A program made the position numbers and the translations under genes. From Escherichia coli (GTDB lineage Bacteria; Pseudomonadota; Gammaproteobacteria; Enterobacterales; Enterobacteriaceae), in the NCBI RefSeq assembly GCF_003790525.1, contig NZ_CP033635.1: 64,000 bases of DNA; one strand, given 5' to 3'. Below the pieces are notes generated by a model that saw only the letters and a program-made list of their open reading frames with translations, had not been told where the DNA came from and searched no databases. Of this stretch, positions 54,341 to 54,525 are shown in pieces. Each line of letters opens with the position of its first letter. Within the stretch, counting starts at the first letter, position 1.

Positions 54341-54525
54341 TGGTGGAGCTGGCGGGAGTTGAACCGGCGAGCCTTTCGGCTCCCCCACACAGACCGCCAT
54401 AAATCGCGAATGTGACTGTGCAAACGATATGAGAGAAGACGCGGGCGCGTCTCATATCGCTCCGTAAACATCCGGGACGCCAATCCCGACAACCGATTTT
54501 GCGGTTGCGTGGGGAATATAGCCCC
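54341..54525 (-). other. ssrA (tmRNA) 3'-end-like sequence within a highly structured segment (fossil att site or tRNA-like element)
   Basis: The reverse complement ends GGTTCAACTCCCGCCAGCTCCACCA, identical to the remembered last 25 nt of E. coli ssrA. The segment begins GGGGCTATA (tRNA-Ala/tmRNA-like 5' end) and contains several perfect hairpins. Confidence 0.4.

What the first reader, a model, noticed from the sequence alone, without database searches (positions are those of the whole stretch)
54341..54525. ssrA 3'-end copy embedded in a densely structured ~185-nt segment near attR
On the minus strand the segment ends with GGTTCAACTCCCGCCAGCTCCACCA. That is identical to the last 25 nt of E. 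coli tmRNA as I recall it. ompW, not ssrA, is this phage's integration site. The segment starts GGGGCTATA, a tRNA-Ala/tmRNA-type 5' end that could pair with the 3' end including the G3-U pair. It contains at least five clean hairpins: GGGGCTATATTCCCC; CAACCG-CAAAAT-CGGTTG; CGGGA-TTGGCG-TCCCG; a 14-bp bulged stem GCGATATGAGA...TCTCATATCG; and GAGCC-GAAA-GGCTC. The simplest reading is a fossil attP of an ancestral ssrA-integrating phage, captured by module exchange together with the neighbouring dinI region. The tRNA-like ends and structure leave open a transcribed tRNA-like or mini-tmRNA-like RNA.
Basis: partly seen in the sequence, partly recalled or inferred. Interest (0 to 1): 0.55.

Follow-up and report, generated by a model that had tools for sequence, protein, structure and literature searches.

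The report
Decayed phage RNA switch, fossil ssrA site
The segment is not a mini-tmRNA: it is the broken remnant of a known prophage antisense-RNA switch (promoter, IsrK sRNA, front half of C4 RNA) fused to a leftover half of an attachment site from phages that integrate into the tmRNA gene, an ordinary recombination scar found in essentially one E. coli strain.

Summary
Window 54365..54341 (-) is identical to the last 25 nt of E. coli ssrA, and the listed hairpins exist. But the hairpins belong to known elements:
- "GGGGCTATATTCCCC" overlaps the -10 box of a near-consensus promoter.
- The next three hairpins are IsrK / c4-a1b1 (Rfam 69 and 51 bits).
- GAGCC-GAAA-GGCTC is hairpin 1 of a C4 antisense RNA.

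The C4 copy stops at GCCGG|TT and continues as the ssrA 3' end. It scores below Rfam threshold for both C4 (28.5 bits) and tmRNA (22.5 bits), and ARAGORN finds nothing.

Relatives at the same ompW site show the intact order: promoter-isrK-C4-ant1(ORF6N)-C4'-ant2 in ST2350. In GF4, C4' is cut at the same point and joined to the ssrA core and dinI arm. The window lacks the stretch between two 26-nt repeats (C4 3' half plus ant1).

In 538 E. coli genomes a real ssrA runs into about 90% identical dinI-arm sequence. The flank is therefore the dinI-side arm of an ssrA-type lambdoid attP.

The fossil-attP reading is supported and the tRNA-like RNA reading is not. The deleted junction occurs in 1 of 5,426 complete genomes. 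Interest is low.

The parts
54515..54544 (-). Sigma-70 promoter of the isrK-type module (TTGACA, 18-nt spacer, TATATT).
   Evidence: 11 of 12 matches. The predicted start, G at 54508, is 7 nt after the -10 and equals position 1 of the Rfam isrK model. The promoter is conserved in GF4 and ST2350. An isrK promoter is shown experimentally in Gifsy-1 (PMC4825925).
54432..54508 (-). IsrK-type sRNA, equivalent to the a1/b1 target element of C4. SL1 is GCAACCG-CAAAAU-CGGUUGU, SL2 is CGGGA-UUGGCG-UCCCG, followed by a terminator hairpin GAGACGCG-CCCGCGUCU. The U-tract is weakened (UCUUCUCU).
   Evidence: Rfam isrK 69.2 bits (gathering score 50). c4-a1b1 51.2 bits at 54469-54521 (gathering score 46.7). 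Fold.
54362..54404 (-). 5' half of a C4 antisense RNA gene: the 5' strand of the long stem, hairpin 1 (GAGCC-GAAA-GGCUC) and the 5' strand of hairpin 2 (GCCGG). It is truncated after GCCGGTT.
   Evidence: Alignments to the intact C4 of GF4, ST2350 and the window's own left locus. The Rfam C4 score is only 28.5 bits against a gathering score of 45. The b' sequence is absent.
54362..54387 (-). 26-nt sequence TGGGGGAGCCGAAAGGCTCGCCGGTT. In GF4-type relatives it occurs twice as a direct repeat (inside C4 and inside the C4'::ssrA element). It is the inferred deletion crossover.
   Evidence: Longest-common-substring result. Alignment A2.
54341..54365 (-). Fossil ssrA-type att core, identical to the last 25 nt of E. 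coli tmRNA (2 nt of the T-stem, the T-loop, the T-stem 3' strand, the acceptor 3' strand and ACCA).
54070..54340 (-). P' (dinI-side) arm of an ssrA-type lambdoid attP. It includes paired CACGTR motifs at +120 and +131 from the core start (about 54245-54229), an intrinsic terminator at 54220..54189, and a LexA-box-like TACTGTTTATCCATACAGT at 54130..54112.
   Evidence: 538 genomes with ssrA joined to this arm.. The arm is 267/271 identical to GF4.
53851..54069 (-). DinI-like gene that travels with the att arm.
   Evidence: Pfam DinI E 5.7e-12. Annotations.
54735..54767 (.). attR of the resident prophage in ompW. It repeats window 848-880.
   Evidence: 33 nt, 97%. The ompW 3' fragment is annotated.

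Best explanation
The segment is a decayed copy of a known phage regulatory module, fused to a fossil half attachment site.

Ancestral form. This is preserved at the same ompW prophage end in other strains. A constitutive promoter drives IsrK (the a1/b1 decoy and target element). Read-through of its terminator gives C4 antisense RNA, then the a2/b2 target sites and the ribosome-binding site of an ORF6N antirepressor gene (ant1). A second C4' and ant2 follow. This is the P1 immI-type / Gifsy-1 isrK-orf45(STnc1160)-anrP type of switch.

First event. In one lineage a C4-type gene was broken in the 5' strand of its second hairpin (GCCGG|TT). It was joined to the core and dinI-side arm of the attP of lambdoid phages that integrate into the tmRNA gene. 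That brought in dinI.

Second event. In the window's strain, recombination between two 26-nt direct repeats (C4 interior and the C4'::core hybrid) removed the 3' half of C4, the a2/b2 sites and ant1.

What is left. A promoter and an apparently intact IsrK sRNA remain, followed by a non-functional C4 stump that runs into the ssrA 3'-end copy and then to the arm's terminator at 54220..54189. The stump lacks the closing stem, hairpin 2 and the b' recognition sequence. The ssrA copy is DNA-level debris of site-specific recombination, not an RNA gene.

Shown: identities, homologies, Rfam scores and the population distribution. Inferred: transcription from the promoter, loss of C4 function, and the order and enzymology of the two recombination events.
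For: Known RNA families:
- Rfam isrK 69.2 bits and c4-a1b1 51.2 bits at 54432-54521.
- Promoter with 11/12 matches.

Intact relatives at the same ompW locus:
- GF4 has isrK, C4 (78.9 bits), ORF6N, then GGGGCGCATGGGGGAGCCGAAAGGCTCGCCGGTTCAACTCCCGCCAGCTCCACCA, then dinI.
- ST2350 has isrK, C4 (77.6 bits), ORF6N, an intact C4' (58.4 bits), then a second ORF6N. The C4' upstream flank is identical to the flank of the GF4 hybrid.

Deletion:
- The window aligns with GF4 apart from one clean gap bounded by the shared repeat.
- The repeat is 26 nt exact.

Loss of C4 function:
- Intact C4 folds at -49 kcal/mol (z -5.5). The hybrid folds at -26.5 kcal/mol (z -1.7).
- The complement of each isrK SL2 loop occurs only in its cognate C4 and never in the hybrid.

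ssrA-type att site:
- The last 25 nt are identical to ssrA.
- 538 genomes have a real ssrA fused to this arm, with dinI next to it.
- The genuine attP P arm (PhiR12_1) is not C4-like.
- Arm motifs are conserved at the same offsets.

Rarity:
- The deleted junction is in 1 of 5,426 genomes and the GF4-type junction in 16 of 5,426.
- There are no matches in IMG/VR or in 185,579 species-representative genomes.
Against: - No expression data exist for this strain, so transcription is inferred.
- No genome combines the window's isrK allele (98% to ST2350, 90% to GF4) with an undeleted GF4-type tail, so the immediate parent of the deletion is not observed.
- The GF4 hybrid is itself a mosaic. Its 5' strand is C4'-type, while hairpin 1 and GCCGG are C4-type. 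The reverse order of events therefore cannot be excluded: a primary C4::core junction like the window's, later recombined with a tandem module.
- The reciprocal junction expected from an integrase-mediated event was not found.
Confidence: 0.85

Rival explanations
1. The segment encodes a functional tRNA-like or mini-tmRNA-like RNA. Its 5' GGGGC pairs with the 3' GCUCC-ACCA (G3-U) to give an acceptor-stem mimic that is processed or charged.
For: - The 3' 25 nt equal the T-arm 3' part and acceptor 3' strand of tmRNA.
- GGGGC at 54525-54521 could in principle pair with GCUCC.
- The whole 168-nt transcript folds somewhat better than shuffles (z -3.0).
Against: - ARAGORN is negative.
- Rfam tmRNA reaches 22.5 bits against a gathering score of 47, with a C-C mismatch in the T-stem (GCCGG/CCCGC).
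- GGGGC lies inside the promoter spacer and -10 region, upstream of the predicted start.
- The z-score is carried by the IsrK hairpins. The 3' 64 to 91 nt fold at z -1.7 and -0.6.
- The arrangement exists in 1 of 5,426 genomes and derives from a deletion, so there is no conservation.
Confidence: 0.03
2. The window's C4-5'::ssrA-core junction is the primary product of a recombination that hit the first C4 gene directly. This recombination could be integrase-mediated, with C4 hairpin 2 acting as a pseudo-attB for an ssrA-type integrase, or microhomology-mediated. The GF4-type arrangement then arose later, by recombination between such a hybrid and a tandem C4-ant1-C4'-ant2 module at the short TGGGGGAG identity.
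For: - The GF4 hybrid is a mosaic: a C4'-type 5' strand up to TGGGGGAG, then C4-type hairpin 1 and GCCGG.
- No undeleted parent with the window's isrK allele was found.
- C4 hairpin 2 (CGCCGG-TTTCCGTAC-CCGGT) resembles the ssrA T-arm (CGCGGG-TTCAACT-CCCGC).
- The switch point coincides with the left edge of the natural attP/attB identity block.
Against: - It needs a crossover at an 8-9 nt identity rather than at a 26-nt one.
- The window form is the rarer one (1 genome against 16).
- The reciprocal junction is absent.
- A single deletion between perfect 26-nt direct repeats is simpler.
Confidence: 0.2
3. The retained core plus P' arm is still an active recombination site. It would act as a secondary attB for incoming ssrA-type phages, or as a partner for integrase-mediated rearrangements with the real ssrA.
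For: - The full 25-nt identity block is intact, and 3 of the 4 bases to its left also match ssrA.
- ssrA-type lambdoid prophages are common, present in 538 of 5,426 genomes.
Against: - No genome shows a second element inserted at this site.
- The resident integrase is of a different type: Arm-DNA-bind_1, against Arm-DNA-bind_2 in PhiR12_1, with only 25% identity over 68 aa.
- The left core-type half-site differs from ssrA (GCC against GCG).
Confidence: 0.1

Closest known systems
Gifsy-1 isrK-orf45(STnc1160)-anrP locus (Hershko-Shalev et al. 2016, PMC4825925); Rfam isrK RF01394
   Same: The promoter, the 77-nt IsrK with two 5' stem-loops and a leaky terminator match at full model length (69 bits). 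In relatives the read-through region gives a C4-type RNA and an antirepressor gene. Gifsy-1 DNA matches the intact module at 81%.
   Different: In the window the downstream effector part is gone. There is no complete C4/STnc1160 equivalent, no a2/b2 sites and no antirepressor gene. The terminator U-tract carries two T-to-C changes.
Phage P1/P7 immI region: c4 antisense RNA with a1/b1 and a2/b2 targets upstream of icd-ant (Rfam C4 RF01695 and c4-a1b1 RF03163; mechanism cited from established knowledge, Citron and Schuster 1990)
   Same: The logic in the intact relatives and in the window's own left locus (5273-6348) is the same. The a1b1 element, C4 and a2b2 sites sit in one transcript ahead of an antirepressor gene. 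Loop and target covariation defines specificity: UUGGCGU/ACGCCAA, UUGGAAC/GUUCCAA, GUGGAAA/UUUCCAC.
   Different: The window's right-hand copy keeps only the first 43 nt of C4 and fails the Rfam threshold (28.5 against 45 bits). The long closing stem, hairpin 2 and b' are replaced by ssrA sequence.
attP/attL of ssrA-integrating lambdoid prophages (CP-1639, AJ304858; PhiR12_1, PV340549; UMNK88 prophage)
   Same: The 25-nt core is identical. The P' arm is about 90% identical, with the same CACGTR pair, terminator and dinI gene at the same distances.
   Different: The P arm and the cognate integrase are absent. The core is flanked on the left by a C4 stump. The site sits inside a prophage integrated at ompW, whose integrase is of another type.
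E. coli tmRNA (ssrA; Rfam RF00023)
   Same: The last 25 nt are identical.
   Different: There is no 5' acceptor strand in the transcript, no tag reading frame and no pseudoknots. The T-stem carries a mismatch. The Rfam score is below threshold and ARAGORN is negative.

Membership tests
tmRNA / tRNA-like RNA | Recognised by a dedicated detector (ARAGORN) or by Rfam RF00023 at its gathering score. | tested here: not met
   ARAGORN finds no gene at the site. Rfam tmRNA reaches 22.5 bits against a gathering score of 47.
tmRNA / tRNA-like RNA | A transcribed 5' strand that pairs with the 3' acceptor strand (G3-U), and an intact T-arm. | tested here: not met
   The candidate GGGGC (54525-54521) lies in the promoter, upstream of the predicted +1 at 54508. 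The T-stem GCCGG/CCCGC has a C-C mismatch. The transcript start is inferred, not measured.
tmRNA / tRNA-like RNA | 3'-terminal sequence of tmRNA (T-loop, acceptor 3' strand, ACCA). | tested here: met
   25 of 25 nt identical to K-12 ssrA.
IsrK / c4-a1b1 element | Full-length match to the covariance model at or above its gathering score. | tested here: met
   isrK 69.2 bits against 50. c4-a1b1 51.2 bits against 46.7.
IsrK / c4-a1b1 element | Its own promoter placed so that the transcript starts at model position 1. | tested here: met
   TTGACA-18-TATATT ends 7 nt before 54508. The promoter is conserved in GF4 and ST2350.
IsrK / c4-a1b1 element | Expression as a stable sRNA of about 77 nt. | not testable with these tools
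   Shown only for Gifsy-1 (PMC4825925).
C4 antisense RNA (RF01695) | Match at the gathering score with the long closing stem and two internal hairpins. | tested here: not met
   28.5 bits against 45. The fold is -26.5 kcal/mol (z -1.7), against -49 kcal/mol (z -5.5) for intact C4.
C4 antisense RNA (RF01695) | A b' sequence complementary to the cognate isrK SL2 loop. | tested here: not met
   ACGCCAA is absent from the hybrid and present in ST2350 C4.
C4 antisense RNA (RF01695) | Homology of the 5' half to genuine C4 genes. | tested here: met
   Alignments A1-A3. The hybrid shares 31 nt exactly with GF4 C4.
immI-type / IsrK-AnrP antirepressor module | a2/b2 target sites and an antirepressor gene downstream of C4 in the same transcript. 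| tested here: not met
   Absent from the window's right copy. Present in GF4, ST2350 and the window's left locus.
ssrA-type lambdoid attP | Core identical to the 3' end of ssrA. | tested here: met
ssrA-type lambdoid attP | P' arm homologous to the phage DNA that abuts ssrA in lysogens, with arm motifs in register. | tested here: met
   538 genomes. Contexts. Motifs at +120 and +131.
ssrA-type lambdoid attP | P arm with its motif pair, and the cognate integrase gene next to it. | tested here: not met
   The PhiR12_1 P arm (aatttttcggatacg..., motifs at -78 and -67) is replaced here by C4/IsrK sequence. The only integrase in the prophage (1012-2142) is of a different type.

The most novel reading that the evidence does not exclude
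The original join between a C4-type gene and the ssrA att core was made by an ssrA-type phage integrase that used C4's second hairpin as a pseudo-attB. That hairpin has a 5-bp stem and a U-rich loop and resembles a T-arm. Structured phage regulatory RNA genes could then act as secondary attachment sites, and integrases could shuffle modules between co-resident prophages. As a corollary, the surviving core could still be a live secondary site for ssrA phages.
Probability: 0.2. Interest if true: 0.45.

Novelty: new member of a known kind. Interest (0 to 1): 0.2.

Why it matters
The practical value is mainly for annotation. A perfect 25-nt copy of the tmRNA 3' end next to dense hairpins looks like an RNA gene. 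It resolves into three known things: the IsrK/a1b1 element, a C4 stump and a fossil half-attP.

It also documents step by step how lambdoid prophage ends are rebuilt. Module capture occurred at an att core, followed by deletion between short repeats. An antirepressor switch can lose its effector this way while keeping an expressed sRNA. That orphan IsrK could still cross-talk with same-specificity modules in other prophages.

None of this challenges current understanding.

Tried and rejected
- tRNA/tmRNA detection: ARAGORN on the window and on relatives found nothing at the site.
- The 402-aa ORF downstream of the core: I considered that it was the cognate integrase, which would have made this an attL-int pair. 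It is an IS1414 (IS256-family) transposase.
- The C4-like bases left of the core: I considered that they were part of the natural ssrA-type attP P arm. Rejected, because the PhiR12_1 P arm is an ssrA mimic and not C4-like.
- The reciprocal recombination product (P arm joined to the C4 3' half) in 5,426 E. coli genomes: not found.
- The hybrid junction GCCGG+core in IMG/VR viral contigs and in 185,579 species-representative genomes: no hits.
- RNAduplex energies between the IsrK alleles and the C4 alleles did not discriminate cognate from non-cognate pairs. I used exact loop-complement matches instead.
- Resemblance of the C4 3' end (GUUCCAACCCC...GCCACCA in GF4) to the ssrA 3' end, as a sign of common ancestry: set aside. 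The GUUCCAA part is the variable b' specificity sequence, which reads ACGCCAA or UUUCCAC in other alleles.
- The paper 'Traffic at the tmRNA gene' could not be retrieved under the PMC id I tried from memory.

Full report
**What is in the sequence.** On the minus strand, 54365..54341 reads GGTTCAACTCCCGCCAGCTCCACCA. I fetched K-12 ssrA, which ARAGORN calls as tmRNA with tag ANDENYALAA at L003 294-656. It ends ...gacgcgGGTTCAACTCCCGCCAGCTCCACCA. The base before it differs (C against G) and the three before that match. The 25-mer is unique in the window even with 3 mismatches allowed, and it never appears in shuffles. The hairpins are real.

**What the hairpins are.** Rfam at gathering thresholds places isrK (RF01394, 69.2 bits) at 54432-54508 and the C4 target element c4-a1b1 (RF03163, 51.2 bits) at 54469-54521.
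- The '14-bp bulged stem' is the IsrK terminator hairpin with extended flanks.
- Hairpin 1 (GGGGCTATATTCCCC) overlaps the -10 box of a TTGACA-18-TATATT promoter (54544..54515, 11/12 matches). The -10 ends 7 nt before model position 1 of isrK. That inverted repeat is not conserved in the GF4 relative.
- Hairpin 5 (GAGCC-GAAA-GGCTC) is hairpin 1 of a C4 antisense RNA. The stretch 54404-54362 aligns with genuine C4 genes up to GCCGGTT and then departs into ssrA sequence.

In permissive mode the stretch scores C4 28.5 bits (gathering score 45) and tmRNA 22.5 bits (gathering score 47, T-arm and 3' strand only). Intact C4 folds at -49 kcal/mol (z -5.5). The hybrid folds at -26.5 kcal/mol (z -1.7).

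**Context.** The window holds a prophage of about 54 kb in ompW.
- The att repeats are at 848-880 and 54735-54767.
- A lambda-type integrase is at 1012-2142.
- The right end reads: YadA-like gene, sigma-HTH gene, an IS1414 transposase (52501-53709), DinI (53851-54069), the finding, the ompW 3' fragment, then yciEFG and trp.
- The same prophage has an intact module near its left end: DicF 6299-6348, isrK 5988-6064, C4 5876-5963, a2/b2 sites, then a Rha-family gene 5273-5818.

**Relatives give the history.** A 1.6-kb query around the finding matches E. coli TUM1886 at 99.5% in one piece. At least 14 other listed genomes match in two pieces with about 660 extra bases.

In GF4 (L002) the minus strand reads as follows:
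- promoter, isrK (72.7 bits), full C4 (78.9 bits);
- gATTGGAACCtgaAGGTGGCG (a2/b2) and a ribosome-binding site;
- an ORF6N gene, whose homologues phage records annotate as antirepressor Ant;
- ...ttattgtGGGGCGCATGGGGGAGCCGAAAGGCTCGCCGGTTCAACTCCCGCCAGCTCCACCAttttt, then dinI.

In ST2350 (L009) the ORF6N gene is followed by an intact second C4 (C4', 58.4 bits) and a second ORF6N gene. The flank upstream of C4' is the same sequence that precedes the GF4 hybrid. The GF4 'tail' is therefore a C4-type gene cut in the 5' strand of hairpin 2 and continued by ssrA sequence (alignment A3).

GF4's C4 and its tail share an exact 26-nt direct repeat, TGGGGGAGCCGAAAGGCTCGCCGGTT. The window equals GF4 minus everything between the repeats. 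Downstream of the core the window is 267/271 identical to GF4. Upstream it is 98% identical to ST2350.

**The ssrA part is a half attP.** A chimeric query (last 60 nt of real ssrA plus the window's 100 nt after CCACCA) is covered at 80% or more in 538 genomes. The match lies under an annotated ssrA at about 90% identity. In UMNK88, CP-1639 and PhiR12_1 the order is smpB, ssrA, about 270 bp, dinI, tail-fibre genes.

PhiR12_1's other end gives the true P arm...ttaagaatttttcggatacg|GGTTCAACTCCCGC, with an integrase nearby. That arm mimics ssrA and is not C4-like. The reconstructed attP carries paired TGCACGT(A/G) motifs at -78/-67 and +118/+129 from the core. The window, GF4, UMNK88 and CP-1639 all keep the pair at +120/+131.

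The window thus has the core plus the P' arm, which includes a terminator at 54220..54189. It lacks the P arm and the cognate integrase. The resident integrase has a different arm-binding domain and no meaningful similarity. ssrA and yciD (= ompW) are both published Stx-phage integration sites (PMC8065619).

**Function.** For the intact module I follow the published models.
- In Gifsy-1, transcription from the isrK promoter partly reads through the IsrK terminator into orf45-anrP. A processed RNA of about 80 nt (STnc1160, the C4 equivalent) arises from that read-through. Short IsrK acts in trans on the long transcript to switch on antirepressor translation (PMC4825925).
- In P1, C4 pairs with a/b sites to block downstream expression (established knowledge).

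Specificity pairs covary among the alleles seen here. The window and ST2350 have UUGGCGU with ACGCCAA. GF4 has UUGGAAC with GUUCCAA. The left locus has GUGGAAA with UUUCCAC.

The window's hybrid has none of these b' sequences, no closing stem, no a2/b2 sites and no ant gene. I therefore infer an orphan IsrK gene followed by inert read-through RNA. Two T-to-C changes weaken the IsrK terminator U-tract.

**Distribution.**
- The deleted junction occurs in 1 of 5,426 complete E. coli genomes (TUM1886, 100% identity). About 700 genomes match only up to GCCGGTT.
- The GF4-type junction is in 16 genomes, all identical.
- The junction string is absent from IMG/VR and from 185,579 species-representative genomes.

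There is no conservation that would suggest selection on the hybrid.

**Open points.** The enzymology of the first join is unresolved. The switch lies within GGTT, at the left edge of the natural attP/attB identity block. C4 hairpin 2 resembles a T-arm, so an integrase-mediated pseudo-attB event is plausible. Microhomology explains it equally well, and the reciprocal product was not found.

The GF4 tail is a mosaic of C4' and C4 sequence. The order of the two events is therefore favoured but not proven.

**Verdict.** The fossil-attP reading is supported and refined to a half-site fused to a truncated C4. The tRNA-like RNA reading is rejected. This is an ordinary recombination scar built from known parts.

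Noticed in passing
window 5273-6348 (-): An intact second module lies near the left end of the same prophage: DicF (6299-6348), isrK-type a1b1 (5988-6064), C4 (5876-5963, 73.8 bits), a2/b2 sites GTGGAAA...GGTGGTG, then a Rha-family regulator gene (5273-5818). Its specificity pair (GUGGAAA/UUUCCAC) differs from that of the right-hand copy.
   Followed up: partly
L009 (ST2350, NZ_CP031321) 2540-3744: Two C4-antirepressor units sit in tandem behind one isrK promoter: isrK-C4-ORF6N-C4'-ORF6N. C4' carries the GF4-type b' (GUUCCAA), not the b' that matches its own isrK. One transcript would therefore carry two immunity specificities.
   Followed up: partly
window 52501-53709 (-): An IS1414 (IS256-family, Transposase_mut) copy is inserted between the sigma-HTH gene and dinI. 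It is absent at this position in GF4. In the searches run here this insertion was seen only in TUM1886, which has many IS1414 copies (22 places matched the 1.6-kb query).
   Followed up: partly
window 54112-54130 (-): A LexA-box-like TACTGTTTATCCATACAGT (CTG-N10-CAG) lies just upstream of the DinI-like gene. It is conserved in the ssrA-type phage arms (PhiR12_1, GF4).
   Followed up: no
window 54432-54445 (-): The IsrK terminator U-tract reads UCUUCUCU here, against UCUUUUUU in GF4 and ST2350. The two T-to-C changes should increase read-through.
   Followed up: no
L007 1-60 (-) / L006 1-50 (PhiR12_1, PV340549): The genuine ssrA-type attP P arm mimics ssrA beyond the 25-nt core (aatttttcggatacg against gaatttcggacgcg). 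The deposited phage record ends in true ssrA sequence, so it was delimited by prophage coordinates.
   Followed up: partly
window 848-956 and 54735-54843: The ompW att region is duplicated as two blocks (33 nt at 97% and 41 nt at 90%). The phage therefore carries a diverged replacement for the ompW 3' end, and ompW is probably restored at attL.
   Followed up: partly
window 54308-54337 (-): A promoter-like TTGACA-18-GACAAT (10/12 matches) starts 4 nt after the CCACCA end, inside the att arm. In ssrA lysogens it would sit just downstream of the tmRNA gene.
   Followed up: no
window 17182-17335 (+): Phage-borne tRNA-Met (CAT) and tRNA-Arg (TCT) genes lie in tandem.
   Followed up: no
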